Shown here: piece after piece, positions 48,141-60,965 of the stretch | Layout of the letters: each line of letters begins with the position of its first letter | How positions within the stretch are numbered: position 1 is the first letter of the stretch | Source: an uncultured Gaiellaceae bacterium | GTDB taxonomy: Bacteria > Actinomycetota > Thermoleophilia > Gaiellales > Gaiellaceae | Assembly: GCA_963787855.1 (NCBI GenBank) | Contig: CAWBER010000010.1 | Location: 14,066-78,065 of the forward strand | Reading direction: 5' to 3' | DNA: 64,000 nucleotides | The notes under the pieces: model-generated | The model's input: only the letters and a program-made list of their open reading frames with translations | What the model was told of the DNA's origin: nothing | Database searches by the model: none | Translations under genes and position numbers: made by a program

Positions 48141-48776
48141 GTGGCCAAGTGCTACGACCAGTACTGCCCGATGGCGCATGCGCTCGACCTGGTCGGTGAG
48201 CGCTGGTCGTTGCTGATCGTCCGCGAGCTGCTCGAAGACGACCAGCTTCGGTACTCGGATCTCCATGCGCGGCTTCCCGGCTGCGGCACCAACATCCTCG
48301 CTGCGCGGCTGAAGACGCTCGAGCAGGGAGGTGTCGTCCGCCGCCGCAAGCTCGACCCACCGGCGGGGTCGTGGGTCTACGAGCTCACGGAGTACGGCGC
48401 GGGGCTCCGCGAGGTGCTCCACGTGCTCGCGCACTGGGGCGCGCGTTCGCTCCGTCCCCCCGCGACGTCTGGCGACCTCGAGCCGGGCTGGCTCCACGGC
48501 GCGCTCCGCATCGCGCTTCCCGCTGCGAGCTCGCCGAGGCGGATCGAGTTCCGTATCGGCGACGAAGTCGCAGCGGTCGTGGACGACTCCGTCGTCGAAG
48601 GCTCGGTCGACGACCCCGAGGCTGTCGTGACCGGCGACACACCGAGCTTCTATTGCCTGATGGTCGACCGAGACATCGATGCCGTCGCGATCGAGGGCGA
48701 TGCCGAGGCCGTACGCGCGATGCTCGCGTCGCTCCCAGCAGTGCCGGCGACAGAGCCGGCTCTGTCCGCGAGCTAG
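48141..48776 (+). CDS. HxlR-family transcriptional regulator with C-terminal SCP2-like extension
   Basis: CPMAHALDLVGERWSLLIVRELL...RYSDL...LAARLKTLEQGGVV.R. GTG 48141. Divergent from the MFS gene. Confidence 0.85.
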   Translation: MAKCYDQYCPMAHALDLVGERWSLLIVRELLEDDQLRYSDLHARLPGCGTNILAARLKTLEQGGVVRRRKLDPPAGSWVYELTEYGAGLREVLHVLAHWGARSLRPPATSGDLEPGWLHGALRIALPAASSPRRIEFRIGDEVAAVVDDSVVEGSVDDPEAVVTGDTPSFYCLMVDRDIDAVAIEGDAEAVRAMLASLPAVPATEPALSAS

Positions 48777-49355
48777 CGTGCGCCGAAGTCGTCGAGGCGC
48801 CCGGTCTTGCCGCGGATCCCGATCCCGACGCGTCCTGCGGCGACGTACGTCGAGTCCGCGACGCTCCCGAGGAGCGTCCACGTCGACCCCCGCTTGAGCC
48901 ACGCCTCGAGCGTCGACGCCTTCACGCGTAGAAGGAGCGTGTCGCCGGCCGCGAGCTCCTGGAGGATCGTGAGCCTGGTGACCGTCCCGCCCGTGTCGAT
49001 CCGCTCGAGCATCACCTGGTCGGTCCCGGCGAGCTGGTTCGTCCTGAGCACGTAGCCGCTGTGCACCGCCAGGCCGGCGTTCTGGAGCCGCGCGTACAGG
49101 CGGAACTGGTTGCCGTTGCCGGGGAGCGTGGAGACACGCGCCCACACCTCCGTGTCCGGGCCGAGCGCCGGGTTGGTCCGCCAGGCCGTGCACGTGGTCG
49201 TCTTCGTGCACTGGACGGTGTTCGAATTCACGCGCAGGCCCGTCTCCACGGAGCCGCCGATCCCGTTCGACCAGCCGTTGGCCAGGGGGTTCTCGTTGCG
49301 CCGGTTGAAGCTGTCGACGATCGGCAGGGGCTCGACCGGGGCGAGGGCGCCACTC

Positions 49356-49955
49356 GGCGTCGAGACCGTCGCCGTGGCCGAGTAGGGACCGAGGTTGAGC
49401 GCGGCGTCCTGGGCACGCACGCGGTAGGTGTAGGAGGTCGAGGCGGCGAGGCCGGTGTTCGAGAAGCTCGCCGAGGTGCTCGTGCCGACCTCGCCGAAGA
49501 CCGAGCAGCCCGCGCCCGAGCAGCGCTCGATGCGGTACAGGGTCACTCCCACGTTGTCGGAGGCCGCGGCCCAGGTGAGATCGATCTGGGTCGGGCTCAC
49601 CGGGGCCAGGCTCGGTGTTCCGGGCGCGCTCGGCGCCTCGGTGTCGGGCGGCGCCGGCGTCGAGACCGTCGCCGTGGCCGAGTAGGGACCGAGGTTGAGC
49701 GCGGCGTCCTGGGCACGCACGCGGTAGGTGTAGGAGGTCGACGCGACGAGGCCGGTGTTCGAGAAGCTCGTCGAGGTGCTCGTGCCGACCTCGCTGAAGA
49801 CCGAGCAGCCCGCGCCCGGGCAGCGCTCGATGCCGATACGAGGGTCGACTCGCGACGTTGTCCGTCGGCCGCCTGCCAGGAGAGGTCGATCTGCGTCGGG
49901 CTGGCAGCGGCGGCAGGCTCAGGTTCGTTGGCGGGGTGGGCGGCTCGGTGTCGGG
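49356..49955 (-). repeat. Tandem repeat 2 x 300 bp (FN3-type module ...IDLTWAAASDNVGVTLYRIERCSGAGCS...YTYRVRAQDAALNLGPYSATATVSTP)
   Basis: ggcgtcgagaccgtcgccgtggccgagtagggaccgaggttgagcgcggcgtcctgggcacgcacgcggtaggtgtaggaggtcga occurs at 49356 and 49656. The second copy decays with indels after about 49830. Confidence 0.85.
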
Positions 49956-49973
49956 CGGAGGGGCACCCATCGT

Positions 49974-51720
49974 CCGCGCACCGAAGTCGTCGAGCCGGCC
50001 GGTGGTGCCGCGCAGGCCGATGCCGGCGAAGCCGACGGCAGACGTAGGTCGAGTCGGAGACGACGCCGAGGCGAGTCCAGATGGAGCTTGCATTGCGCCA
50101 GATCTCCAGGGTCGAGCCCTTGGCCCGCAAGAGCAGGACGTCGCCCACCGCGAGCTCCTGGTTGACGGTCAAGCGGTTGACGAGGGCGCCGTTGTCCATC
50201 CGCTCGAGGAGAGATCTGGTCGGTCCCCGCAAGCTCGTTGGTGCGCAGCATGTAGCCGTCGTAGGTCGAGGCGCCAGGGCCTCTGCAGACGTGCGAACAG
50301 GCGAATGTGGTTGTTGGTGCCGAGGAGCGGTGGAGATGCGCGTCCACGACCTCGACGTCAGGGCCGTACTGAGGGGTCGTGCGCCAGGCCGTACAGGTCG
50401 TCGTCTTCGAGCAGGCGAGCGTGTTCGAGGTCGTGTAGAGCCCGGTTTCGACGCCACCGATGGCGCTGATCCCGTTCGTCCAGCCCCCGGAGAGCGGGTT
50501 CTCGTTGGGGCGGTCGAAGCTGTCGACCACCGGGAGCGGCTCGACCGGGGTGACGAGGTCGGCGGGCGTCGCGGAGGCCTCGTTGGAGAGCGCGCCCTCG
50601 CCGTTTCCGTTGACCGCGGACACCTTGTAGTAGTAGGTCGTGCCGTTCGAGGCGCTGCCGTCGACGTAGCTCGTCGTCGCGCCCGCGTCGTCGAGGAAGC
50701 TCAGCGACCCGGAGCTCAGGCCGCGGTACACCTTGTAGTTCGTGACCGTGCGACGCCTCCGTCGAAGTTGGGTGCGTTCCAGGCAGGCTTACGCTCGTCG
50801 TCGCCGGCGAACGCGGAGAGGGCGGTCGGCGCCTGCGGCGGGTTTTGGCTGATGCTCCGCGCACCGAAGTCGTCGAGCCGGCCGGTGGTGCCGCGCAGGC
50901 CGATGCCCGCGAAGCCGACGGCAGCGTAGGTCGAGTCGGAGACGACGCCGAGTCGAGTCCAGATGGAGCCTTGCATTGCGCCAGATCTCCAGGGTCGAGC
51001 CCTTGACCCGCAAGAGCAGGACGTCGCCCACCGCGAGCTCCTGGTTGACGGTCAAGCGGTTGACGAGGGCGCCGTTGTCGATCCGCTCGAGGAAGATCTG
51101 GTCGGTCCCCGCAAGCTCGTTGGTGCGCAGCATGTAGCCGTCGTAGGTCGAGGCGCCAGGGCCCTGCAGACGTGCGTACAGGCGAATGTGGTTGTTGGTG
51201 CCGAGGAGCGTGGAGATGCGCGTCCACACCTCGACGTCAGGGCCGTACTGAGGGGTCGTGCGCCAGGCCGTACAGGTCGTCGTCTTCGAGCAGGCGAGCG
51301 TGTTCGAGGTCGTGTAGGAGCCCGGTTTCGACGCCGACCGATGGCGCTGATCCCGTTCGTCCAGCCCCCGGCTCGAGAGCGGGTTCTCGTTGGGGCGGTC
51401 GAAGCTGTCGACCACCGGGAGCGGCTCGACCGGGGTGACGAGGTCGGCGGGCGTCGCGGAGGCCTCGTTGGAGAGCGCGCCCTCGCCGTTTCCGTTGACC
51501 GCGGACACCTTGTAGTAGTAGGTCGTGCCGTTCGAGGCGCTGCCGTCGACGTAGCTCGTCGTCGCGCCCGCGTCGTCGAGGAAGCTCAGCGACCCGGAGC
51601 TCAGGCCGCGGTACACCTTGTAGTTCGTGATCGTGGAGCCTCCGTCGAAGGTCGGCGCGTTCCAGGCGAGGCTCACGCTGTCGTCGCCGGGCGTGGCCGC
51701 GAGGGAGGTGGGGGCGCCCG
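49974..51720 (-). repeat. Tandem repeat 2 x about 883 bp (FN3 plus X module)
   Basis: ccgcgcaccgaagtcgtcgagccggccggtggtgccgcgcaggccgatgcc occurs at 49974 and 50857. The copies are near-identical over about 750 bp, differing by scattered 1-4-nt indels and a few substitutions. A diverged third X module lies at 48776-49355. Confidence 0.85.
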
Positions 51721-52827: not shown

Positions 52828-54378
52828 TCAGACGAGGCCGCCGGGGTACTTCCACGGCCCCGGCTCGAGCTTGATGCCGCGCTTGCGGCAGAACTCGCGT
52901 ACGGAATCGAGTACGACGCCCGCGCTCCCATGGACACGGCGGCCGAGCAGGTCGAGAACCGCAACGCCCTCTGGCACATCGCCGCGCATGTCGAGCGCGA
53001 GCACGACGGCCGGAGCGTCGACACCACCCCGATAGATCGACGTGAACAGAACGCGCGTCCCTTCCACTTCGAAGGCGTCGTCGTGGACCGCCGTGACCTC
53101 GTGACCCCGCAGCGCGAGGAGCTCGTGGAGATCGACGACCATCCGTCGCGCCAGCTCGAGGCGGCGCGCGTCGGAGAGCTTGTGGCTGGAGCTGCCGGTC
53201 GCCTTCGCGGGGACGCCGATCGCGAACGACCCGGCGGGGATCTCACCCACGACATACGAGTTGGACGCGACGATCGCCTCGGCCCCGATCCTCGCGCCGG
53301 CGTACAGCACCGCACCGAGCCCGACCTGCGAGCGGTCTTCGAGCACGACCGGCGCGAAGCGGTTCTCGAAGCCCTCGAGCACCGAGTGTCCGATGTTGTG
53401 GGTGACGATCAGCGAGCGCATCGTCAGGAAGACCTCGCGGCCGATCAGCACCGGGCGGCAGACGTTCACGAACGCCTCGTCGCCGACGAACGCCAGGTCA
53501 CCGATCGCCAGCGTCGCCCACGGATCCCGGTGGCCGCCGCCGCCGATCCGGACCGAGCGTCCCCCCCAGATCCCCGAGCCGAGGAAGGCGCGGCGGCACC
53601 GCAGCTCGAGGTCGACGCCGAACTGGGTGACAGCTCCGACGGCGAACACCTCCTCGCACACGACGGTCGCGCGCGCGCCGAGCTGGACGCCGTCCGAGAT
53701 CACGATGCGGGGGGCGACGACCAGCGAGCCCTCGCCGAGCTCGACGTCCTCGCCGACCTCGGCCCCGTACTCGCGCAGGACCCGGACCTTCTCGGCGGGC
53801 GGCAGCGCGCGGAAGTCGTCCTGCTCCCGCAGAAGCCGCTCGTAGGACGACGGCTCGAGCGCACCCGACGCCCCGTCGGGATCGAACGTGTCCGGCAGCG
53901 AGACCCCGGCCGTCGAGACGCCTGCAAGCGCCGGGCTCGCCGAGGGCGTCGCGGCGGCCTTCTGAGCGTCGATCAGCGCCTCGACGTCCTTCTCCGTGAT
54001 GAAGCCGCGCTTCTCGACGGACGCGAGGTCGATCCCGTGCAGCTCGGCGAGCTCCACCGCCTTCCGCGTCGCCTTGCGGTCGCCCGCGGGCGGCTTCGGC
54101 GCCGGCTTCTCCTTCGCCTTGGCGTCGATCGACGCGAGCTCGTCGGCGGACTCGGCGACGTAGGCGATCGTCTTGCCCAGCTCGACCTCGATGTTCTCGG
54201 CGTAGAGCTGCACGATCGTCCCCGCGCCGGGCGCCTCGACTTCGACCGTCGCCTTGGTCGTCTCGACCACGCAGACCGGCTGGCCCGCAGTGACTTCCAC
54301 TCTGTCCTCCACGAGCCACTCCGCGAGAAGCGCGTACTCGGTGTTCGCGTCTTCGCGCGTGAGAACGATCTCGAGCAT
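52828..54378 (-). CDS. E2-like lipoyl carrier: lipoyl-attachment domain plus E1/E3-binding (PSBD) domain plus left-handed beta-helix hexapeptide acyltransferase plus unassigned C-terminal domain
   Basis: Lipoyl domain AGQPVCVVETTKATVEVEAPGAGTIV. PSBD ATRKAVELAELHGIDLASVEKRGFITEKDVEALI. Ala/Pro linkers. LbH region IGDLAFVGDEAFVNV...THNIGHSVLEGFENRFAPVVLEDRSQVGLGAVLYAGARIGAEAIVASNSYVVGEIPAGSFAIGVPAK. I saw no DHRxxDG-type E2 core. Confidence 0.8.
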   Translation of the reverse strand: MLEIVLTREDANTEYALLAEWLVEDRVEVTAGQPVCVVETTKATVEVEAPGAGTIVQLYAENIEVELGKTIAYVAESADELASIDAKAKEKPAPKPPAGDRKATRKAVELAELHGIDLASVEKRGFITEKDVEALIDAQKAAATPSASPALAGVSTAGVSLPDTFDPDGASGALEPSSYERLLREQDDFRALPPAEKVRVLREYGAEVGEDVELGEGSLVVAPRIVISDGVQLGARATVVCEEVFAVGAVTQFGVDLELRCRRAFLGSGIWGGRSVRIGGGGHRDPWATLAIGDLAFVGDEAFVNVCRPVLIGREVFLTMRSLIVTHNIGHSVLEGFENRFAPVVLEDRSQVGLGAVLYAGARIGAEAIVASNSYVVGEIPAGSFAIGVPAKATGSSSHKLSDARRLELARRMVVDLHELLALRGHEVTAVHDDAFEVEGTRVLFTSIYRGGVDAPAVVLALDMRGDVPEGVAVLDLLGRRVHGSAGVVLDSVREFCRKRGIKLEPGPWKYPGGLV

Positions 54379-54385
54379 GCGCGCG

Positions 54386-55420
54386 CTAGCTTCGCACGCC
54401 GTCGAGCGCCATCACCGCGGCAACAACGTCCTCGACGCTCGGAAGCATGTCGTCCTCGAGCGGACGGGCCGACGGGATGATCCCGTCGCGCGCGGCGACG
54501 CGCTGAACCGGAGCGCGAAGATGGCTCCACGCAGCCTCCTGGACGCGCGCGGCGATCTCTGCGCCGAAGCCGCCGGTCAGCGTTCCCTCCTCGGCCGTCA
54601 CGAGCGCGCCCGTGCGCGCGACGGACTCGAGCACGGCGTCGAGCTCCATCGGCACGAGCTGGGAGAGCGCGACGACCTCGCAGAAGATCTCATGCTCGAG
54701 CACGAGCTCGGTGACGGCGTCGAGGACGATCTGGAGCATTCCGCCGTACGTGACCACGGTCGCGGCGCCCTCGCTGAAGTCGGTCGCGGAGAAGGTCAGC
54801 GCGGGATAGGGGTCACCGCTCTCGCGCACGGCGAGCTCGCCGATGTGGCCGTCCTCGGGCCGCCGGATCGGCCGGCCGTACAGCAGCTTGTTCTCGATGA
54901 AGAAGACCGGGCGCTCGTCCTCGACCGCGGCTGCCAGCAATGCGCCGACGTCGTGGCACTCGCTCGGGGCGACGACGCAGATGTTGGGGATGCCGAGCAG
55001 GAGCTTCTCCAGAGACTGGCTGTGCGTCGGCCCGTAGCCGCGGCGGCCGCCCATCGGCGTGCGCACGACGAGCGGCACCGTCACCTGGTCGTCGTACATC
55101 TCGCGGAACTTCGAGATCCCGTTCACGATCTGGTCGAGCCCCAGCGCGACGAAGTCACCGAACATGATCTCGAGGATCGGCCGCTGGCCGCGAAGCGCCA
55201 TTCCCGCGGCGACGCCGAAGAGCGAGGCCTCGCTGATCGGCGTGGTGAGGACACGATCCGGGTACGCGTCGGAGAGCCCCTGCGTCACCTTGAACGCCCC
55301 GCCGTACGGGTCGAGCACGTCCTCGCCGAAGAGGACGACGTCGTCGCGCTCCGCGAAGAGCGCATGCAGCGTCTCGTTCAGAGCCTGCACGCCGCGCTTC
55401 CCCTGGGCCGTGGTCGTCAC
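54386..55420 (-). CDS. 2-oxoacid dehydrogenase E1 component, beta subunit (transketolase-like Pyr and C-terminal domains)
   Basis: GTG 55420 overlaps the E1 alpha stop (GTGA). Contains VVLFGEDV..YGGAFKVT.GL, TPISEA...GVAAGMAL.G.RPI.EIMF.DF, and RTPMGG..GYGPTHSQS. Confidence 0.9.
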   Translation of the reverse strand: MTTTAQGKRGVQALNETLHALFAERDDVVLFGEDVLDPYGGAFKVTQGLSDAYPDRVLTTPISEASLFGVAAGMALRGQRPILEIMFGDFVALGLDQIVNGISKFREMYDDQVTVPLVVRTPMGGRRGYGPTHSQSLEKLLLGIPNICVVAPSECHDVGALLAAAVEDERPVFFIENKLLYGRPIRRPEDGHIGELAVRESGDPYPALTFSATDFSEGAATVVTYGGMLQIVLDAVTELVLEHEIFCEVVALSQLVPMELDAVLESVARTGALVTAEEGTLTGGFGAEIAARVQEAAWSHLRAPVQRVAARDGIIPSARPLEDDMLPSVEDVVAAVMALDGVRS

Positions 55421-56316
55421 GCGGCGACTCCGGGAGCTGCGGCCGGTGCTTCGTCGGCCGCCTCGACCGTCTCCGCCAGACGCTCCTCGCACCGCTCCTC
55501 GATCGCCTTCCGCTCCTCGTCGGCGAGCCGACCGCCGGCGACGACCAGCGGATCGCGCGTGCGCCGCTCCTCGATCTCGGCCGGGTCGCGCTGGTCGTCC
55601 GACTTCGAGTGCGGGCTGAAGCGGTAGGTGTTGAGGACGAGGAAGAACGGCGCGCCCGTCTCCCGGATCCGCGCCACTGCGCGACCTGCCGCCTCGTGGA
55701 TCACGTCGACGTCCGTCGTGTCGAGCTCGTCGACCTCGACGCCGAACGCCGCGCCGCGGGCCGCGATCGATCCGGCGAGCTCGAGCTCGACCGGCGTCGA
55801 CTGCGCGTAGTAGTTGTTCTCGACGACGAACAGCACCGGCAGGCGCCACAGCGACGCGAGGTTCAGGGACTCGTAGGTCACGCCCTCGCCGAGCGTGCCG
55901 TCGCCGAGGAACACCGTCGAGACCGCGCCCGTGCCCTTGCGCTTCTCCGCGAGCGCGATGCCCGTCCCGACCGGGACGATGCTCCCGAGGACGCCGTTCG
56001 AATAGAAGTTCCCCTTGCAAAGGTGCTGACTACCACCCTTGCCGCCGCAGACGCCCGGCGCCTTCCCCATCACCTCGCACAGGAGGCCGAACGCGTCGTC
56101 GGTGAAGGCGAGGTAGTGCCCGTGGCAGCGGTGGTTGGAGAAGATCGTGTCGACATCAGGGTCGAGGTGGTCGATCAGGCCGACCGCGTTCGCCTCCTGC
56201 CCGATGTACGTGTGCGTCGTGCCCACGAGCTTCCCGAGCGAGAAGAGGTCGAGGAGGGTCTCCTCGAAGCGGCGGATGAAGAACATCCGCTCGTAGAACG
56301 TCGCAAGCTTGTCCAT
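55417..56316 (-). CDS. 2-oxoacid dehydrogenase E1 component, alpha subunit (TPP-binding)
   Basis: YIGQEA, HRCHGH, GGKGGSQH, and the TPP motif FLGDGTLGEGVTYESLNLASLWRLPVLFVVENNYYA. Confidence 0.9.
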   Translation of the reverse strand: MDKLATFYERMFFIRRFEETLLDLFSLGKLVGTTHTYIGQEANAVGLIDHLDPDVDTIFSNHRCHGHYLAFTDDAFGLLCEVMGKAPGVCGGKGGSQHLCKGNFYSNGVLGSIVPVGTGIALAEKRKGTGAVSTVFLGDGTLGEGVTYESLNLASLWRLPVLFVVENNYYAQSTPVELELAGSIAARGAAFGVEVDELDTTDVDVIHEAAGRAVARIRETGAPFFLVLNTYRFSPHSKSDDQRDPAEIEERRTRDPLVVAGGRLADEERKAIEERCEERLAETVEAADEAPAAAPGVAA

Positions 56317-57488
56317 CAGAGGTAGCCGAGGTCGGAGAGACGCTTCGCGACGGTCGCCTCTTCCTCCTCCGTCAGCTCGTGCGTCTCCGCGCTCTCCAGC
56401 TCACGGAAGACGATGTCGCGCAGCTCCTGCGCCGCGTCCGAGCGCGGGTGCAGCTCACGCGGGTCCTCGTCGAGGCGGTACGCCTCCTCCTCGCCGCTCT
56501 CTACGTGGAGGATCAGCTTCCAGGGCGGCTTGCGCACCGCGAGCTTCGTAAGTGCGCCCTTGTCGGTCCCCGCGATGATCGCGTCGCGGTCGCCGTCGAC
56601 GTGGAGCAGCGACTCGCCGTCCGTCTCACGCGCCGGAAGGCCTGCGAGCTCGAGCAGCGTCGGCATGAGGTCGACCGAGCGCACCTGGTGGTCGACGACC
56701 GCCGAATCGAGCCGGCCGGGAGCGGAGAGGATCAGCGGCACCTCGACGATCTCGTCGTAAAGCGTCGCGCCGTGCATGTGGTACACGCCCTGCACGTCGT
56801 CCTTCGCGCGGAAGCGCTCGCCCCACGACTCTCCGTGGTCGGAGAGGAAGGCGACGACGGTGTTCTCGCGCCGACCGAGCGTCTCGAGCTCCCCGAGGAA
56901 CGAGGCGACGAGCACTTCGGACTGCCGCTCGACCGCCGAGCGATAGCGCTCGCGCATCGCTTCGAGCGCGGACGCCGAATCGGACTGGATGCCCTCGATG
57001 ACCTCCTGCTTCGCTGCGAGCCAGTTCTTGCGGTCGGCATGGACGATGTCGTAGGGCATGTGCGTCGCCCAGTTGTGCACGTACAGGAAGAAAGGCGTGT
57101 CCCGCTTCGCGCGCAGCCACTCGAACGCGCCGTCGAGGGACTCGGACGTGCCGAGGACGTTCGCCTCGGGCAGGTCCTTGAAGAGGTAGTTCGTGTCGAA
57201 CACGAAGCTCGCGACGTCGTAGCCGTGGGCGGAGAACGCGCGGAAGGCAGTCTCGATCGACGGGTCGAGCGTCGCGTCCCAGTGCAGGTAGCCGTGGTGG
57301 TGCGCGTACATCCCGGTCACGATCGACGTGGTCGAGGGCGCGGTCCACGGCGCGGCGCTGATCGCATGCGCGTAGCGAACGCCCCCCGCGGCGAGCTCGT
57401 CGATCGTCCCCGTGTTCACGTACCGGGCGCCGTAGCAGCCGAGATGGTCCGTGCGCAGCGCATCGGAGACGTAGACGACGACGTTCAC
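56316..57488 (-). CDS. Cytoplasmic sulfatase-family (alkaline phosphatase superfamily) protein lacking the formylglycine motif
   Basis: NVVVYVSDALRTDHLGCYG and SDHGESWGE are sulfatase-fold metal-site motifs. At the C/S-x-P-x-R position the sequence is PWTAPSTTSIVTG. No signal peptide. The stop overlaps the E1 alpha ATG by 1 nt. Confidence 0.85.
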   Translation of the reverse strand: MNVVVYVSDALRTDHLGCYGARYVNTGTIDELAAGGVRYAHAISAAPWTAPSTTSIVTGMYAHHHGYLHWDATLDPSIETAFRAFSAHGYDVASFVFDTNYLFKDLPEANVLGTSESLDGAFEWLRAKRDTPFFLYVHNWATHMPYDIVHADRKNWLAAKQEVIEGIQSDSASALEAMRERYRSAVERQSEVLVASFLGELETLGRRENTVVAFLSDHGESWGERFRAKDDVQGVYHMHGATLYDEIVEVPLILSAPGRLDSAVVDHQVRSVDLMPTLLELAGLPARETDGESLLHVDGDRDAIIAGTDKGALTKLAVRKPPWKLILHVESGEEEAYRLDEDPRELHPRSDAAQELRDIVFRELESAETHELTEEEEATVAKRLSDLGYL

Positions 57489-57829: not shown

Positions 57830-59044
57830 GTGCCGCCGGTGCGGAGGCAGGCACCTCTCTACGCCCTGTACGCCGCGGAGACGATCTCGCTCGCGGGAAA
57901 CGCCGTTGCCCAGCTCGCCATCCCCTGGTACGTCCTGATCACGACCGGGAGCGCAACGCTCACCGGTCTCGCCGTCTTCTTCAACTTCCTCCCGATCGTG
58001 CTCGCGGCCTTCTTCGGCGGCGTTGTCGTCGACCGGCTCGGCTTCCGGGCGACGAGCATCGTCGCCGACCTCGCCAGCGCGGCTGCCGTCGCGGCGATTC
58101 CGCTCATCGAGTCGACGGTCGGAATCGAGCTCTGGCAGCTCTTCGCACTCGTGTTCCTCGGTGCGCTCCTGGACGCGCCGGGAGCGACCGCGCGTGCCGC
58201 ACTCCTCCCCGACGTCGTGGAGCTTGCGGGCGCCCGGATGGAGCGCGCAAGCGGGATCCGGTCGGCGATCCAGCAGAGCGCGATCCTCATCGGCGCACCG
58301 GTCGGCGGCATTCTGGTCGCGGCTTTCGGGGCGACGACAGCGCTGTGGCTCGACGCGGCGAGCTTCCTCGTCTCCGCGACGCTCGTCGGATTCTTCATAC
58401 CGCGTCCGGCCGCAGCCGCTGCGGGTGAGGAGGAGGCGCCGGGCAGGTTCTTCGAGGAGCTCACCGAGGGCATGCGGTTCATCTGGCAGCGGCGCGTCCT
58501 GCGGGCCGTCGTCCTCATGGTGCTCCTCTCCAACCTCCTGGAGGCGCCGTTCCCGGTGGTGATGTCGGTCTTCGCCCGTGAGGAGTACGGCAGCGCGTCC
58601 GACCTCGGGCTCATGTTCGGCGTCTTTGGAGGCGGCGCGCTCGCGGGATCCCTCGTCTACAGCGCGATCGGGCACCGGCTGCCGCGGCGGCGGACATTCC
58701 TGTGGTGCTTCGCGGGCATACCGATCGCGTACTTGGCGCTCGCGACCCTGCCGCCGCTACCCGTTGCACTCGTCGCGCTCGCCGTCACCGGCCTCGTGGC
58801 TGGCCCGATCAACCCGCTGCTCTTCACCGTCCTGACCGAGATCGTCCCGACGCAGTTGCGCGGACGCGTCTTCGGCGCTGTGCGAGGCGGCGCCTGGGCT
58901 GCGATCCCCCTCGGCACACTTGTCGGCGGGGTGCTCGTGGGCGCAATCGGTGTCGCGCCGACGTTTCTCGCGATCGGCGTGCTCCTCGCGCTCGTCGTCG
59001 CCCACGGCTTCGTCAACCCCGCGTTCCGGGAGATGGACCCGTGA
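57830..59044 (+). CDS. MFS transporter (12-TM, EntS/MFS_3-like)
   Basis: 404 aa, 12 hydrophobic segments, DRLGFR motif after TM2. Confidence 0.85.
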   Translation: MPPVRRQAPLYALYAAETISLAGNAVAQLAIPWYVLITTGSATLTGLAVFFNFLPIVLAAFFGGVVVDRLGFRATSIVADLASAAAVAAIPLIESTVGIELWQLFALVFLGALLDAPGATARAALLPDVVELAGARMERASGIRSAIQQSAILIGAPVGGILVAAFGATTALWLDAASFLVSATLVGFFIPRPAAAAAGEEEAPGRFFEELTEGMRFIWQRRVLRAVVLMVLLSNLLEAPFPVVMSVFAREEYGSASDLGLMFGVFGGGALAGSLVYSAIGHRLPRRRTFLWCFAGIPIAYLALATLPPLPVALVALAVTGLVAGPINPLLFTVLTEIVPTQLRGRVFGAVRGGAWAAIPLGTLVGGVLVGAIGVAPTFLAIGVLLALVVAHGFVNPAFREMDP

Positions 59045-59583
59045 GGGCGGTGATCCTCGTCGAGGGGATCAGCGACCAACACGCTGTCGAGGCGCTCGCA
59101 GTGCGGCGCGGCCGCGACCTGGGTGAGGAGGACGTCTCGATCGTGCCGATAGGGGGTGCGCACGCGATCGCTGCTGCGCTCGAGCGGTTCGGCCCGAGCG
59201 GGCTCGACGTCACACTGGCCGGCCTCTGCGACGTCGGCGAGGAGCACGCATTCAGGCGCGGCCTCGAGCGGGCGGGACTGGGCGCAAACCTCGACCGGGC
59301 CGGCATGGAGGCGCTCGGCTTCTACGTGTGCGACACCGACCTCGAGCACGAACTGGTGCGGGCGCTCGGCGTCGACGCCGTGCTGCGGATCGTCGACGAG
59401 CAGCGCGAGCTGAGCTCGTTCCGCACCTTCCAGAAGCAGCCGGCGAAGCGGGAGCTCGACCTCGAGGAGCAGCTGTGGCGGTTCATGTGGAACCGGAAGA
59501 TCCGGTACGCGACGTTGCTGGTCGAGGCGCTCGATCTCGAGCGTGTGCCGCGCCCGCTCGACGGCGTCCTAGCTCACGTCTGA
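59041..59583 (+). CDS. Stand-alone TOPRIM (OLD-nuclease-type) domain protein
   Basis: The GTG overlaps the MFS stop (GTGA). Contains VILVEGISDQHAVEALA...IVPIGGA...GLCDVGEE...YVCDTDLEHEL. The conserved E and DxD acidic positions of Toprim are present, but there is no ATPase domain. Confidence 0.6.
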   Translation: MRAVILVEGISDQHAVEALAVRRGRDLGEEDVSIVPIGGAHAIAAALERFGPSGLDVTLAGLCDVGEEHAFRRGLERAGLGANLDRAGMEALGFYVCDTDLEHELVRALGVDAVLRIVDEQRELSSFRTFQKQPAKRELDLEEQLWRFMWNRKIRYATLLVEALDLERVPRPLDGVLAHV

Positions 59584-60965
59584 GCGGCGAGAAGCGGCGA
59601 CCCACGCATCCCCGCCGGCTCCTCGATCCCGAGGATCTCGAGCACGGTCGGAGCGATGTCGAGCAGGTGTGCGTCGCGCCGCCCGGCGGCGCCGATGCCC
59701 GGGCCGGCGACGACATACAGGCCGTCCTGAGCGTGGTTCGCGTCATCAGGCCCCGTGTCGTTCTCGAGTGTCTGGATGCCCTCGTCGCCGCCGATGGTTC
59801 CGACCGAGCGCCAGAGGAGGTCGCCGAAGACGACGATGAGGTCGGGTGCGACGCCCTGCGGCTCGCCGTACAGCTCCTCCGGCTTGTAGACGGTGGTGGG
59901 GATCGGGTTTCCGGCGTCGTCCGGGATGGCCGCGATGCGGCGCGCAAGATCGTCGCGAACGGCCTCGTACTCCTCGGGCGGGATCGTCCCTTCCGGCTCG
60001 CGGCCGGCGACGTTCAGGAAGACGCGCGCGTAGTAGCCGCCTTCCCCCCACGCTGTCGTTCGCGACCAGTCGACCCCTACGTCGCGCAACGACGAAACGC
60101 CGTTCGGCTCGGCGAGCGTCGCGAGCAACTCCTCGCGGCGCAGCCACTCGTTGATCCGGATCCCTCCGTCGAGGCGCTTCGCGCCGTGGTCGGAAAGGAC
60201 GAAGACGACGGTGTCGTCGTCGGCGTGCTCGAGCAGCTTCCCGATGAGGCCATCCACGTGGCGGTGGTAGTCGAGGATCGCGCTCTCGTACGCGTTCCCG
60301 GGCTCGTGCTTGCGGTGCTCGGGGTCCATGAACTTCCAGAAGCCGTGGTGCATGCGGTCCGGCCCCATCTCGACCATCGCGAACAGCGTCCACGGCTTCG
60401 TCTCCAGGAGGTGCTCGGCGAGCGCGAAGCGCCGGTCGGTCATCTCGTACACCTGGCGCAGCAGGTACTCCTTGTCGTCCGTGCGGAAGTCCTTGGTGTC
60501 GAAGAGGTACTCGCCGACAACGTCTGCGATCTCGTCCTTCAGCGCTGCCGGGTACGTGTACTTCGAATCGAGCGACGGTGTGAGGAAGCAGCCCACCATG
60601 ACGCCGTTCAGCGGCTTCGGCGGGTAGCAGCCGGGCACCGAGAGCACGATCGACGAGCCGCCCGCGCGCGTGACGAGATCCCAGAGCCGCGGCTCCTTGA
60701 TCGCGGTCGACATCGCGATGAAGCCGCCGTCGTACGTGTGGTCGGAGCGATTCCGGAAGCCATAGACGCCGAGGTCTCCGGGCGTCTTCGACGACATCAT
60801 GCAGGACCACGCAGGCACGGTGATCGGCGGGATGACCGAGGTCAGGCGACCGTACGTCCCGCGCTCCATGAGCCGCGAGATCGTCGGCAGCTCGTCGCGC
60901 CAGCGCTCGAGGACAAGCGAGGGCTCGGCGCAGTCGAGCCCGATGAGCATGACCTTCCGCGGCAC
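59574..60965 (-). CDS. Alkaline phosphatase superfamily protein, type I phosphodiesterase/nucleotide pyrophosphatase (NPP) type
   Basis: VMLIGLDCAEP, PPITVPAWSCMMS (Thr nucleophile context), VLSDHGA. 463 aa, no signal peptide. Confidence 0.8.
   Translation of the reverse strand: MPRKVMLIGLDCAEPSLVLERWRDELPTISRLMERGTYGRLTSVIPPITVPAWSCMMSSKTPGDLGVYGFRNRSDHTYDGGFIAMSTAIKEPRLWDLVTRAGGSSIVLSVPGCYPPKPLNGVMVGCFLTPSLDSKYTYPAALKDEIADVVGEYLFDTKDFRTDDKEYLLRQVYEMTDRRFALAEHLLETKPWTLFAMVEMGPDRMHHGFWKFMDPEHRKHEPGNAYESAILDYHRHVDGLIGKLLEHADDDTVVFVLSDHGAKRLDGGIRINEWLRREELLATLAEPNGVSSLRDVGVDWSRTTAWGEGGYYARVFLNVAGREPEGTIPPEEYEAVRDDLARRIAAIPDDAGNPIPTTVYKPEELYGEPQGVAPDLIVVFGDLLWRSVGTIGGDEGIQTLENDTGPDDANHAQDGLYVVAGPGIGAAGRRDAHLLDIAPTVLEILGIEEPAGMRGSPLLAAQT

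What the first reader, a model, noticed from the sequence alone, without database searches (positions are those of the whole stretch)
52828..54378. E2-like lipoyl carrier whose acyltransferase core is replaced by a hexapeptide (LbH) acyltransferase
The 516-aa ORF begins like a textbook E2 subunit.
- Lipoyl domain: the Lys sits in VETTKATVEVEAP at the canonical hairpin position (about 54378-54150).
- Ala/Pro linker, then a peripheral-subunit-binding domain ATRKAVELAELHGIDLASVEKRGFITEKDVEALI (about 54070-53960).
- Where characterised E2s carry the chloramphenicol-acetyltransferase-like core (DHRxxDG), this protein has a left-handed beta-helix acyltransferase of the Maa/LacA/WbbJ kind (about 53770-53180).
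- The last 115 residues or so I cannot assign.

LbH enzymes normally take acyl-CoA or acyl-ACP and acylate a sugar, amino acid or amine. Here the donor could be the enzyme's own S-acyl-dihydrolipoyl arm, loaded by the adjacent E1. That would couple oxidative decarboxylation of a 2-oxoacid directly to acylation of a non-CoA acceptor. I do not recognise this as a characterised enzyme architecture.
Basis: partly seen in the sequence, partly recalled or inferred. Interest (0 to 1): 0.75.

Follow-up and report, generated by a model that had tools for sequence, protein, structure and literature searches.

The report
Lipoyl swinging arm fused to sugar-type acyltransferase
This soil actinobacterium gene joins the lipoic-acid "swinging arm" of a pyruvate-dehydrogenase E2 subunit to a sugar-type acyltransferase instead of the usual CoA-forming core, and relatives in many uncultured bacteria sit in cell-surface sugar pathways, which points to an undescribed way of moving acyl groups from 2-oxoacids onto other molecules without coenzyme A.

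Summary
ORF 52828-54378(-) encodes 516 aa in four parts:
- a lipoyl domain with Lys42
- a peripheral-subunit-binding domain (PSBD)
- a Maa/LacA/WcaF-type left-handed beta-helix (LbH) acyltransferase with its catalytic His327
- a confidently modelled 119-aa C-terminal domain with no match in the PDB

There is no CAT-like E2 core in the ORF or anywhere in the window. The gene ends a tightly coupled operon: Thr-type alkaline-phosphatase-superfamily enzyme, E1alpha, E1beta, then this gene.

It is not an assembly artefact. More than 1000 full-length homologues exist, and 146 clusters at 50% identity reach E<1e-30. The architecture holds down to about 25% identity across Actinomycetota, Chloroflexota and Acidobacteriota. 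Lys42 is kept in 81 of 83 sequences and Thr-His326/327 in 83 of 83.

Distant members follow E1alpha/E1beta inside nonulosonic-acid and other glycan loci, usually beside a PIG-L de-N-acetylase. A second fusion, lipoyl-PSBD joined to a PglD/NeuD-type LbH, also follows E1alpha/E1beta. One locus carries both fusions and no plain acetyltransferase gene.

My best reading is that the E1-loaded acyl-lipoyl arm feeds the LbH site directly. This is inferred, not shown. The acceptor in Gaiellaceae is unknown. I found no literature or curated family for this architecture.

The parts
52828..54378 (-). Lipoyl-PSBD-LbH-Cdom protein ('LipLbH'), 516 aa, last gene of the operon
   Evidence: Intact ORF. Domain hits. 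AlphaFold mean pLDDT 89.9. More than 1000 homologues. 146 clusters at 50% identity with E<1e-30.
54145..54378 (-). Lipoyl domain (aa 1-78). The lipoyl-lysine Lys42 is codon 54253-54255, in the motif V-E-T-T-K-A
   Evidence: PF00364 E 2.5e-10. Aligns with the lipoyl domains of solved PDH E2 chains. Lys kept in 81 of 83 family members. It lies in the beta-turn between strands 34-39 and 44-48 of the model.
53953..54078 (-). Peripheral-subunit-binding domain (aa about 101-142), preceded by a low-confidence Ala/Pro/Lys linker
   Evidence: PF02817 is sub-threshold on this protein (E 0.0094). The family profile aligns it to the PSBD of E. coli-type and other PDH E2 chains. The motif T.KA..LA...G.DL....G.I.E.DV is conserved. 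Members P0174 and P0202 pass PF02817.
53734..53853 (-). Helical N-terminal cap of the acyltransferase (aa about 176-215)
   Evidence: Helices 176-184, 186-191 and 194-204 in the model. The conserved motif LSS..K...YR..GA.IG and a mean pairwise identity of 0.39 make this the most conserved segment.
53188..53733 (-). Left-handed beta-helix acyltransferase domain (aa about 216-397). The catalytic pair Thr326-His327 includes the His codon at 53398-53400
   Evidence: PF00132 above gathering score. NCBIfam best hits are WcaF, HpsU and WbbJ family models. PDB profile hits to VCA0836, Maa and LacA. Foldseek hits to Pcryo_0619, VCA0836, MAT and NeuO. His327 aligns with the His of the T-A-S-H motif of 3ECT, taken from family knowledge to be the catalytic His. 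Thr-His kept in 83 of 83.
52831..53187 (-). C-terminal alpha/beta domain of unknown fold (aa 398-516) with the basic motif REF(L/C)RKRGI(K/R)..P.PW(K/R)Y
   Evidence: No Pfam hit at E<=10. Stand-alone model pLDDT 93.4, pTM 0.86. No PDB neighbour (best E 0.72, TM<0.35). G484, R498, G501 and W509 are near-invariant. It also follows the LbH in stand-alone Streptomyces homologues.
54386..55420 (-). E1 beta subunit (344 aa). Its GTG start overlaps the E1alpha stop, and 7 nt separate its stop from the LipLbH start
   Evidence: PF02779 plus PF02780. PDH E1beta subfamily model at 223 bits, below the 321 cut-off. Junction sequences. Adjacent to LipLbH in every Gaiellales locus with room for it.
55417..56316 (-). 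E1 alpha subunit (299 aa), ThDP-binding, PDH-like
   Evidence: PF00676 E 9e-56. TIGR03182 at 250 bits, below the 393 cut-off. The closest solved relative is human PDH E1alpha at E 5e-41, against 1e-21 for BCKDH.
56316..57488 (-). Sulfatase-fold alkaline-phosphatase-superfamily enzyme (390 aa, no signal peptide) with Thr at the formylglycine position. First gene of the operon; its TGA overlaps the E1alpha ATG
   Evidence: PF00884 E 6e-35. The alignment to a solved sulfatase puts W-T-A-P-S-T-T against C-S-P-T-R. The Thr is conserved in all 62 aligned Gaiellales orthologues that cover the motif. It lies directly upstream of E1alpha in nearly all Gaiellales loci.
59574..60965 (-). Second alkaline-phosphatase-superfamily enzyme (PF01663, 463 aa) on the same strand. 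It is separated from the operon here by a divergently transcribed MFS_3 transporter gene and an OLD/TOPRIM-like gene, but is directly adjacent in deeper-branching Gaiellales
   Evidence: PF01663 E 3e-46. Adjacent to the sulfatase-fold gene in L071, L074, L075, L076, L081 and L082. No solved homologue by sequence.

Best explanation
The gene encodes the carrier-plus-transferase subunit of a non-canonical 2-oxoacid dehydrogenase-like system.

**Proposed cycle**
1. The co-transcribed ThDP-dependent E1alpha/E1beta docks on the PSBD. It decarboxylates a small, pyruvate-like 2-oxoacid and reductively acylates lipoyl-Lys42.
2. The S-acyl-dihydrolipoyl arm swings into the active site of the protein's own LbH domain, which is presumably trimeric. 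It takes the place that the acyl-pantetheine arm of acyl-CoA occupies in Maa/LacA/PglD-type enzymes.
3. His327 acts as general base to transfer the acyl group to an amine or hydroxyl of a non-CoA acceptor.
4. The reduced arm is re-oxidised by the housekeeping dihydrolipoamide dehydrogenase (E3), also via the PSBD.

**Acceptor**
In distant family members the acceptor is most likely a de-N-acetylated amino-sugar or nonulosonic-acid precursor, so the module would install a non-acetyl N-acyl group. In this Gaiellaceae operon the acceptor is unknown. It is probably a phosphorylated or nucleotide-linked metabolite handled by the two Thr-type alkaline-phosphatase-superfamily enzymes.

**Shown versus inferred**
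- Shown: the domain architecture, conservation of the two catalytic residues, the operon linkage and the genomic contexts.
- Inferred: lipoylation, loading by E1, direct arm-to-LbH transfer, the identity of the acyl group and acceptor, and the use of E3.
For: 1. **Architecture.** There is no CAT-like core.
2. **Both functional residues are conserved.** Lys42 is kept in 81 of 83 and Thr326-His327 in 83 of 83 sequences that share only about 25-40% identity. His327 aligns with the Thr/Ser-His motif of the Maa/LacA-like enzyme VCA0836.
3. **E1 linkage.**
   - E1alpha and E1beta are translationally coupled to the gene here.
   - They are contiguous with it in every Gaiellales locus long enough to show it.
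   - An E1 gene occupies position -1 in 33 of 54 and position -2 in 29 of 41 diverse metagenomic loci.
4. **Context of distant members.** PIG-L deacetylase occurs in 28 loci, NeuC-like epimerase in 13, DegT in 13, NeuB in 11, NeuA-like in 7 and PtmE-like CBS-NTP transferase in 7. Typical orders are dehydratase-DegT-E1-E1-LipLbH-NeuC-PIG-L-NeuB-LbH-NeuA (L143), and similar in L144 and L160.
5. **An independent fusion.** A second fusion joins a similar lipoyl-PSBD module to a PglD_N + PglD-type LbH. That scaffold's N-domain binds nucleotide sugars (family knowledge). It again follows E1alpha/E1beta.
6. **Locus L176.** Within the 21.5 kb read it holds one E1 pair, both lipoyl-LbH types, PIG-L and two NeuB genes. 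No plain N-acetyltransferase gene was called (one called gene there had no Pfam hit). The lipoyl-LbH proteins are therefore the only evident sugar acyltransferases.
7. **Stand-alone relatives.** LbH+C-domain homologues in Streptomyces sit beside PIG-L or DegT genes. This suggests the core is an amino-sugar-type acyltransferase.
8. **Divergence pattern.** E1alpha and E1beta are 41-60% identical between clades, against 25-31% for LipLbH. This fits a common donor chemistry with diverging acceptors.
Against: - There is no biochemical evidence of any kind.
- I could not inspect model coordinates, so whether the lipoyl arm can reach His327, or whether the CoA groove is occluded, is untested.
- The Gaiellaceae operon has no deacetylase, aminotransferase or sugar-nucleotide gene. 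The acceptor inference from distant relatives may therefore not transfer to the window protein.
- E1 is most similar to pyruvate-specific E1. If the acyl group is plain acetyl, a CoA-independent route has no obvious advantage.
- No E3 gene is linked in any locus examined.
- Some nonulosonic-acid loci also carry a plain LbH acetyltransferase (L143, L144, L160). That enzyme could use an acyl-CoA made by this system.
Confidence: 0.55

Rival explanations
1. Analogous E2 core. The LbH domain is a non-homologous replacement of the CAT-like core and still catalyses acyl-dihydrolipoyl + CoA -> acyl-CoA + dihydrolipoyl. The operon would then be an unusual but functionally conventional 2-oxoacid dehydrogenase complex. 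Its acyl-CoA product would be used by other enzymes or, in Gaiellaceae, by central metabolism.
For: - From general knowledge: CAT-fold and LbH-fold enzymes are both His-dependent trimers and are known to catalyse the same reaction (classical versus xenobiotic chloramphenicol acetyltransferases).
- E2 subunits with a non-CAT core already exist: the AcoC-type model NF011457, which as I recall is lipoyl plus alpha/beta-hydrolase. That model matches only the N-terminal 115 residues here.
- The operon is near-universal and syntenic in Gaiellales, as a core metabolic function would be.
- E1 is PDH-like.
- Some nonulosonic-acid loci have a separate plain LbH that could consume a special acyl-CoA.
Against: - The short class keeps the PglD_N nucleotide-sugar-binding domain, which is pointless for a lipoyl-to-CoA transferase.
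- L176 has no other called acyltransferase gene to use the putative acyl-CoA.
- The LbH and C-terminal domains diverge much faster than E1. That is unexpected if both substrates, lipoyl and CoA, were universal.
- Stand-alone homologues of the core sit in amino-sugar and secondary-metabolite clusters.
Confidence: 0.22
2. Conventional acyl-CoA-dependent LbH acyltransferase in which the lipoyl-PSBD part is not the donor. That part would instead be a docking or regulatory module, or a redox or acyl sensor, that tethers the enzyme to E1/E3 or to the host PDH complex.
For: - The LbH domain is an ordinary Maa/LacA/WcaF-type domain with its catalytic His.
- Stand-alone LbH+C-domain homologues without a lipoyl domain exist and presumably use soluble donors.
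Against: - The lipoyl Lys is kept in 81 of 83 sequences, which implies the cofactor itself is needed.
- A dedicated E1alpha/E1beta pair is co-transcribed across phyla. The only known role of such a pair is to acylate lipoyl domains, and a mere tether would not require one.
Confidence: 0.08
3. Acyl relay to a carrier protein or to water. As in the QncN/QncL/QncM glycolyl system, the lipoyl-bound acyl group would be passed to an ACP or peptidyl carrier. Alternatively it would be hydrolysed to release a free acid as part of a catabolic route, for a phosphorylated or sulfonated 2-oxoacid handled by the alkaline-phosphatase-superfamily enzymes.
For: - There is a precedent for E1/E2-like systems diverted to biosynthesis via ACP (PMC6335953).
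- The Gaiellales operon pairs the module with two phospho-ester-type enzymes. In L075, L079 and L081 an arylsulfotransferase-family gene follows LipLbH.
Against: - No ACP or carrier gene is present in the window operon or in the Gaiellales loci.
- LbH enzymes of this subfamily are not known to act as thioesterases or ACP loaders (general knowledge).
- The distant contexts point to sugars.
Confidence: 0.08

Closest known systems
Dihydrolipoyl acyltransferase (E2) subunits of pyruvate, 2-oxoglutarate and branched-chain 2-oxoacid dehydrogenase complexes
   Same: The N-terminal lipoyl domain with its Lys in the hairpin, the flexible Ala/Pro linker, the PSBD, and the position directly downstream of heterotetramer-type E1alpha/E1beta genes.
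   Different: The C-terminal CAT-like catalytic and core-forming domain (PF00198, DHRxxDG) is absent. A Maa/LacA-type LbH plus an unknown 119-aa domain takes its place. No cubic or dodecahedral core can be assumed, and CoA is probably not the acceptor.
Maa/LacA/WcaF/VCA0836-type hexapeptide (LbH) O-/N-acetyltransferases, and PglD/NeuD-type enzymes for the short sister architecture
   Same: The left-handed beta-helix fold, the helical N-terminal cap, the catalytic His in a Thr/Ser-His motif followed by an extended loop, and the G-V-P-A motif at the end of the helix.
   Different: These enzymes are free-standing proteins of about 180-200 aa that use acetyl-CoA. Here the domain is fused behind lipoyl-PSBD, carries an extra C-terminal domain, and is co-transcribed with an E1 that makes acyl-lipoyl rather than acyl-CoA.
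QncN/QncL/QncM (and SclQ1-4) glycolicacyl-ACP system of tetrahydroisoquinoline and scleric-acid biosynthesis
   Same: A ThDP-dependent E1-like enzyme and a lipoyl-bearing E2-like protein diverted from central metabolism to deliver an acyl unit to a biosynthetic acceptor other than CoA (PMC6335953).
   Different: QncL and SclQ4 are described there as a lipoyl attachment domain plus an acyltransferase catalytic domain, which I take to be the E2 type, and they hand the acyl group to a dedicated ACP. Here the transferase is an LbH, no ACP gene is present, and the contexts are glycan loci or alkaline-phosphatase-superfamily operons.
AcoC-type acetoin dehydrogenase E2 (NCBIfam NF011457 / PRK14875)
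   Same: A precedent for an E2-like protein whose lipoyl domain is joined to a non-CAT catalytic domain. The model matches residues 3-115 here.
   Different: As I recall, the catalytic part there is an alpha/beta-hydrolase fold. Only the N-terminal third of that model aligns, and nothing of it matches beyond residue 115.

Membership tests
2-oxoacid dehydrogenase E2 (dihydrolipoyl acyltransferase) | Lipoyl domain with the modifiable Lys at the beta-hairpin tip | tested here: met
   PF00364 at 40.5 bits against a 22.1 cut-off. Lys42 lies in the turn between strands 34-39 and 44-48. Kept in 81 of 83 sequences.
2-oxoacid dehydrogenase E2 (dihydrolipoyl acyltransferase) | Peripheral-subunit-binding domain | tested here: met
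   Sub-threshold on the single sequence (PF02817, 16.6 bits against 23.7). The family profile aligns through the PSBD of solved E2 chains, and members P0174 and P0202 pass PF02817.
2-oxoacid dehydrogenase E2 (dihydrolipoyl acyltransferase) | CAT-like catalytic and core-forming domain (PF00198, DHRxxDG) | tested here: not met
   No PF00198 hit at E<=10. Canonical E2 proteins match only the lipoyl domain in the whole window. The model shows a beta-helix instead.
2-oxoacid dehydrogenase E2 (dihydrolipoyl acyltransferase) | Genetic linkage to an E1 component | tested here: met
   E1alpha and E1beta lie immediately upstream with overlapping or 7-nt junctions. This linkage is conserved in the Gaiellales loci and in most distant loci.
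2-oxoacid dehydrogenase E2 (dihydrolipoyl acyltransferase) | Lipoylation in vivo, reductive acylation by E1, and acyl transfer to CoA | not testable with these tools
   Needs mass spectrometry and enzyme assays.
Hexapeptide-repeat (LbH) acyltransferases, Maa/LacA/WcaF subgroup | Hexapeptide repeats forming a left-handed beta-helix | tested here: met
   PF00132 at 30.1 bits against a 27 cut-off. The AlphaFold beta-helix spans 219-397. Foldseek probability 1.00 to Pcryo_0619, VCA0836, MAT and NeuO.
Hexapeptide-repeat (LbH) acyltransferases, Maa/LacA/WcaF subgroup | Catalytic His preceding the extended loop | tested here: met
   His327 aligns with the His of the T-A-S-H motif of 3ECT. Invariant in 83 of 83.
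Hexapeptide-repeat (LbH) acyltransferases, Maa/LacA/WcaF subgroup | Score above a curated family cut-off (WcaF, WbbJ, Maa or LacA equivalogs) | tested here: not met
   The best hit is NF007797 at 55.8 bits against a 192 cut-off. Every other LbH model is also far below its cut-off.
Hexapeptide-repeat (LbH) acyltransferases, Maa/LacA/WcaF subgroup | Trimeric assembly and acyl-CoA as donor | not testable with these tools
   Only a monomer model was made and no coordinates were available. The donor needs an assay.
QncN/QncL/QncM-type glycolicacyl-ACP system | Dedicated ACP acceptor gene, and an E2-type acyltransferase domain on the lipoyl protein | tested here: not met
   No ACP or PF00198 among the operon genes or the Gaiellales neighbours. 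The description of the Qnc system comes from PMC6335953.
AcoC-type E2 (NF011457) | Full-length match including the C-terminal hydrolase-fold domain | tested here: not met
   Only residues 3-115 match model positions 5-119 of 372, at 47 bits against a 307 cut-off.
Formylglycine-dependent sulfatases (neighbouring gene 56316-57488) | C/S-x-P-x-R motif for formylglycine generation | tested here: not met
   The motif reads T-A-P-S-T where a solved sulfatase has C-S-P-T-R. The Thr is conserved in all 62 aligned orthologues that cover the motif.

The most novel reading that the evidence does not exclude
Lipoyl-LbH proteins would define a new enzyme class: CoA-independent, lipoyl-arm-fed acyltransferases. 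They occur in two independently fused forms, Maa-like plus C-domain and PglD-like. Together with a dedicated E1 they would convert a 2-oxoacid directly into an N- or O-acyl decoration. For example, hydroxypyruvate would give glycolyl, 2-oxobutyrate propionyl, or glyoxylate formyl. The targets would be nonulosonic acids and other amino sugars after PIG-L de-N-acetylation. This would explain how uncultured bacteria from several phyla diversify sialic-acid-like surface sugars. In Gaiellaceae the same chemistry would be coupled to two Thr-type alkaline-phosphatase-superfamily enzymes to make a still unknown acylated metabolite.
Probability: 0.45. Interest if true: 0.85.

Novelty: new variant of a known kind. 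Interest (0 to 1): 0.72.

Why it matters
In every characterised 2-oxoacid dehydrogenase complex, the lipoyl arm hands its acyl group to CoA through a CAT-like core that also builds the complex scaffold.

A widespread family that swaps this core for a sugar-type LbH acyltransferase, twice and independently, suggests something different. The swinging arm may itself serve as an acyl donor for biosynthesis, channelling a 2-oxoacid into a surface-glycan or metabolite decoration without free acyl-CoA. If so:
- It would add a new donor type to LbH enzymology.
- It would give a biosynthetic origin for non-acetyl N-acyl groups on legionaminic- and pseudaminic-type sugars.
- It would assign a function to genes now annotated as "biotin/lipoyl-containing protein" or "hypothetical" in abundant soil Gaiellaceae and other uncultured phyla.
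- It offers a compact three-gene module (E1alpha, E1beta, lipoyl-LbH) for engineering CoA-independent acylation.

If the rival is right and the LbH is an analogous CoA-forming E2 core, that would still be a notable case of non-homologous replacement in a textbook complex.

Tried and rejected
- **Exact look-up of the window protein:** not on record. I used homologues P0035 and P0028 instead.
- **Genome scan too narrow:** the narrower alignment A2 returned only Gaiellales/Thermoleophilia loci. Distant contexts had to come from the look-up of encoding contigs and one metagenome scan.
- **Literature:** two queries were rejected as malformed. Seven valid full-text searches found nothing on a lipoyl-hexapeptide or lipoyl-nonulosonic-acid system. 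Only the QncN/L/M analogy could be cited.
- **C-terminal domain:** no Pfam hit and no PDB fold neighbour. Its role remains unknown.
- **Gaiellales partner genes:** I looked for the two alkaline-phosphatase-superfamily partners near distant family members and found none. The Gaiellales acceptor therefore cannot be inferred from the glycan loci.
- **Other Gaiellales neighbours:** aspartokinase, SHOCT, MscS, a metallo-beta-lactamase-fold protein (PF12706) and a methyltransferase look like unrelated flanking genes.
- **Cultured carrier:** a search of the plasmid collection found only Streptomyces stand-alone LbH+C-domain homologues. Cluster look-ups gave only MAG names.
- **Rejected readings:**
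  - Biotin carrier: the motif is E-T-[ST]-K-A, not A-M-K-M, and E1 is adjacent.
  - Assembly chimera: more than 1000 collinear homologues exist.
  - Phosphonoacetate hydrolase for the PF01663 gene: no curated NCBIfam enzyme model matched beyond a weak partial phosphoglycerate-mutase hit.
- **Model coordinates:** none are exposed, so arm-to-active-site geometry could not be measured.


Full report
**1. The observation**

The minus-strand ORF 52828-54378 is intact and encodes 516 aa. Pfam finds Biotin_lipoyl at residues 18-73 (E 2.5e-10) and Hexapep at 344-376 (E 3.3e-7). Both are above their gathering scores. There is no 2-oxoacid_dh (PF00198) hit even at E<=10.

The E3_binding (PSBD) model is only sub-threshold on this sequence: E 0.0094 and 16.6 bits on the isolated 46 residues, against a cut-off of 23.7. 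A profile of 45 family members aligns residues 3-148 to the lipoyl+PSBD regions of solved PDH E2 chains. For 7b9k the whole-chain E is 1.5e-40 and the stretch spanning lipoyl+PSBD has i-Evalue 1.2e-17. The alignment runs with high posterior through the PSBD helices. Some members have the canonical G-T/S-G-P-x-G loop and recorded PF02817 hits.

The LbH part is closest to WcaF, HpsU and WbbJ in NCBIfam, all far below cut-off. In the PDB it is closest to VCA0836, Maa and LacA. By fold it matches Pcryo_0619, VCA0836, MAT and NeuO.

His327 aligns with the His of the T-A-S-H motif in VCA0836. From knowledge of the Maa/LacA family, that is the catalytic base.

AlphaFold, using the 45-sequence alignment, gives mean pLDDT 89.9. 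It shows a flattened beta-barrel lipoyl domain with Lys42 in the hairpin turn, a disordered linker (residues 96-99, pLDDT<50), PSBD helices, a helical cap (176-204), a beta-helix (about 219-397), and a separate C-terminal alpha/beta domain.

Modelled alone, that last domain reaches pLDDT 93.4. It has no Pfam hit and no structural neighbour in the PDB (best E 0.72). Canonical E2 proteins match the 64-kb window only at this gene's lipoyl domain.

**2. Not an artefact, and part of a family**

The word-indexed search returned 1004 proteins at E<=1e-3. The best 120 are all 80-92% identical over the full length. They come from independent ENA, JGI, NCBI and Logan assemblies, and those with names are Gaiellaceae MAGs.

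An exhaustive search of representatives clustered at 50% identity found 146 clusters at E<1e-30. Many are about 500 aa long and align from residue 1 to 515 at 26-50% identity. Named members come from Acidobacteriota, Chloroflexota, Zixibacteria, Saccharimonadales and Actinomycetota MAGs. They are annotated only as "hypothetical", "biotin/lipoyl-containing" or "E3 binding domain-containing".

In an 83-sequence alignment the lipoyl Lys is kept in 81 of 83 and Thr326-His327 in 83 of 83. The C-terminal motif R-E-F-L-R-K/R-R-G-I-R-F-x-P-x-x-W-R-Y is largely kept.

**3. Operon in the window and in Gaiellales**

Four genes are transcribed together on the minus strand:
- a sulfatase-fold alkaline-phosphatase-superfamily (AP-superfamily) enzyme, 56316-57488
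- E1alpha, 55417-56316
- E1beta, 54386-55420
- the lipoyl-LbH gene

The junctions are TGATG, GTGA and a 7-nt spacer.

Across 80 Gaiellales/Thermoleophilia loci, E1alpha-E1beta-LipLbH is contiguous wherever the contig allows. The sulfatase-fold gene is directly upstream in nearly all of them. A second AP-superfamily gene (PF01663) lies upstream on the same strand. It is immediately adjacent in deeper-branching lineages (L071, L074, L075, L076, L081 and L082). The ancestral unit therefore looks like a five-gene operon. In the window lineage a divergently transcribed MFS_3 transporter gene and an OLD/TOPRIM-like gene lie between the PF01663 gene and the rest.

The "sulfatase" has W-T-A-P-S-T-T where sulfatases have C-x-P-x-R. 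The Thr is conserved in all 62 aligned orthologues that cover the motif. It is therefore a Thr-nucleophile phosphoryl-transfer-type enzyme and not a formylglycine sulfatase.

E1alpha is most like PDH E1alpha (E 5e-41 to the human enzyme, against 1e-21 for BCKDH). It stays below the curated PDH cut-offs.

**4. Contexts of distant relatives**

Neighbourhoods were recovered by exact-protein look-up and by one metagenome scan. ORFs were then clustered and the cluster representatives annotated with Pfam.

| Feature near the lipoyl-LbH gene | Frequency |
|---|---|
| E1 gene at position -1 | 33 of 54 loci |
| E1 gene at position -2 | 29 of 41 loci |
| PIG-L de-N-acetylase | 28 loci |
| NeuC-like UDP-GlcNAc 2-epimerase | 13 loci |
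| DegT aminotransferase | 13 loci |
| NeuB | 11 loci |
| SDR 4,6-dehydratase | 11 loci |
| CMP-transferase | 7 loci |
| CBS-NTP transferase | 7 loci |
| Bac_transf | 7 loci |

Wzx, Wzy and glycosyltransferase genes also occur.

L143 reads dehydratase-DegT-E1-E1-LipLbH-NeuC-PIG-L-NeuB-LbH-NeuA, and L144 and L160 are similar. From knowledge of the pathway, this is the gene set of a legionaminic/pseudaminic-type nonulosonic-acid route with three additions: E1alpha/E1beta, the lipoyl-LbH and a deacetylase.

Other contexts are:
- a WbpB/WbpE-like set (GFO_IDH_MocA, DegT, LbH) in Chloroflexota (L088)
- a Polysacc_deac_1 partner (L091)
- a subgroup with a luciferase-like monooxygenase, in part of it together with a PlsC-type acyltransferase (L109, L114-L116)
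- a lipid-like neighbourhood in Acidobacteriota (L094)

**5. A second, independent fusion**

The profile search also returned proteins of about 360-385 aa. They carry a related lipoyl-PSBD-like N-terminus (E-T-T-K-A motif) followed by PglD_N and a PglD/NeuD-type LbH. They too lie directly after E1alpha/E1beta (L176 and L177).

Within the 21.5 kb read, L176 carries one E1 pair, the short fusion, NeuB, the long fusion, PIG-L, a second NeuB, and dehydratase, DegT and NeuA genes. No plain acetyltransferase gene was called (one called gene there had no Pfam hit).

Conversely, Streptomyces plasmids encode stand-alone LbH+C-domain homologues (residues 194-512, about 26% identity). One is divergent from a PIG-L gene. 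Another sits among DegT and adenylate-forming genes.

**6. Interpretation**

Five facts bear on the mechanism:
- The arm's Lys and the LbH's His are both preserved.
- A dedicated E1 is always supplied.
- The core belongs to sugar-acyltransferase scaffolds, one of which keeps its nucleotide-sugar-binding domain.
- Deacetylases co-occur.
- In L176 the fusions are the only evident acyltransferases.

Together these fit best with direct transfer of the E1-generated acyl group from the dihydrolipoyl arm to an amine or hydroxyl acceptor in the LbH active site, with re-oxidation by a housekeeping E3. I put it at about 0.55.

The main rival, at about 0.22, is that the LbH is a non-homologous substitute for the CAT-like core and still makes acyl-CoA. 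That is chemically plausible, since CAT and xenobiotic LbH acetyltransferases are isofunctional trimers. It also fits the near-universal conservation of the operon in Gaiellales. It is disfavoured by the PglD_N-bearing fusion, by L176, and by the faster divergence of LipLbH (25-31% identity) than of E1 (41-60%) between clades.

The acyl group is unknown. E1 is PDH-like, but pairing with a deacetylase argues for something other than acetyl in the glycan loci. Glycolyl, propionyl and formyl are speculative candidates.

For the window organism the acceptor is unknown. The only conserved partners are the two Thr-type AP-superfamily enzymes, and these have no homologues near the distant family members.

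**7. Comparison with known systems and novelty**

The protein fails membership of the E2 family because it lacks PF00198. It fails every curated LbH equivalog on score. It differs from QncL-type E2-like proteins, which are described as carrying an acyltransferase catalytic domain and using an ACP (PMC6335953). It differs from AcoC-type E2, where only the N-terminus matches.

No Pfam, NCBIfam or PDB entry has this architecture, and seven valid full-text searches found no paper on it. The paper library is incomplete, so prior description cannot be fully excluded.

I rate it a new variant of a known kind: a 2-oxoacid-dehydrogenase-type swinging-arm system with a replaced transferase and probably a new acceptor class. 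Interest is 0.72.

**8. Limits**

- Everything mechanistic is inferred from sequence, models and gene context.
- All family members come from uncultured organisms, so no known glycan structure could be tied to the system.

Noticed in passing
window 56316-57488 (-): The operon's "sulfatase" (PF00884) has Thr in place of the formylglycine Cys/Ser and lacks the Arg: W-T-A-P-S-T-T against C-x-P-x-R. It has no signal peptide. The Thr is conserved in all 62 aligned Gaiellales orthologues that cover the motif, so this is a cytosolic Thr-nucleophile alkaline-phosphatase-superfamily enzyme of unknown substrate.
   Followed up: partly
window 59574-60965 (-): A PF01663 (Phosphodiest) protein of 463 aa with no solved homologue by sequence. 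It is separated from the operon here by the divergently transcribed MFS_3 transporter gene (57830-59044, +) and an OLD/TOPRIM-like gene (about 59041-59583, +), but is directly adjacent to it in deeper Gaiellales lineages.
   Followed up: partly
window 48775-51640: The fn3-domain protein gene region downstream of the finding contains a tandem duplication of about 0.88 kb at 98-100% identity (for example 50490-50750 = 51375-51635) and a third, diverged copy about 1.2 kb upstream. The coding sequence is split into several ORFs in different frames, whereas the orthologue in L001 is one 1201-aa gene. This could be recent duplication with frameshifts or a repeat-collapse or assembly problem.
   Followed up: partly
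L176 7612-8769 and L177 10001-11131: A second architecture of about 375 aa: lipoyl domain + PSBD-like segment + PglD_N + PglD/NeuD-type LbH, also directly downstream of E1alpha/E1beta. In L176 it coexists with the long form, two NeuB genes and PIG-L.
   Followed up: partly
L075, L079, L081 (gene directly downstream of LipLbH, e.g. L079 11563-13023): In deep-branching Gaiellales an arylsulfotransferase-family (ASST, PF14269/PF05935) gene immediately follows the lipoyl-LbH gene.
   Followed up: no
L178 8824-10032 and L179 8986-10038 (Streptomyces linear plasmids NZ_CP115937, NZ_CP108729): Stand-alone homologues of the LbH+C-terminal domain (no lipoyl or PSBD) in cultured Streptomyces. One is divergent from a PIG-L deacetylase. 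The other lies in a cluster with DegT, an adenylate-forming enzyme and a methyltransferase. They may be tractable models for the unknown C-terminal domain.
   Followed up: partly
L109, L114-L116, L124, L126, L137: In a subgroup of distant family members a luciferase-like monooxygenase, a PlsC-type acyltransferase, or both follow the gene, instead of nonulosonic-acid genes. This suggests a third, possibly lipid-related, use of the module.
   Followed up: no
L091 1-1692: Upstream of one distant member the E1 appears as a single ORF of about 563 aa that matches both E1alpha and E1beta, a possible alpha-beta fusion. The ORF is cut by the contig end.
   Followed up: no
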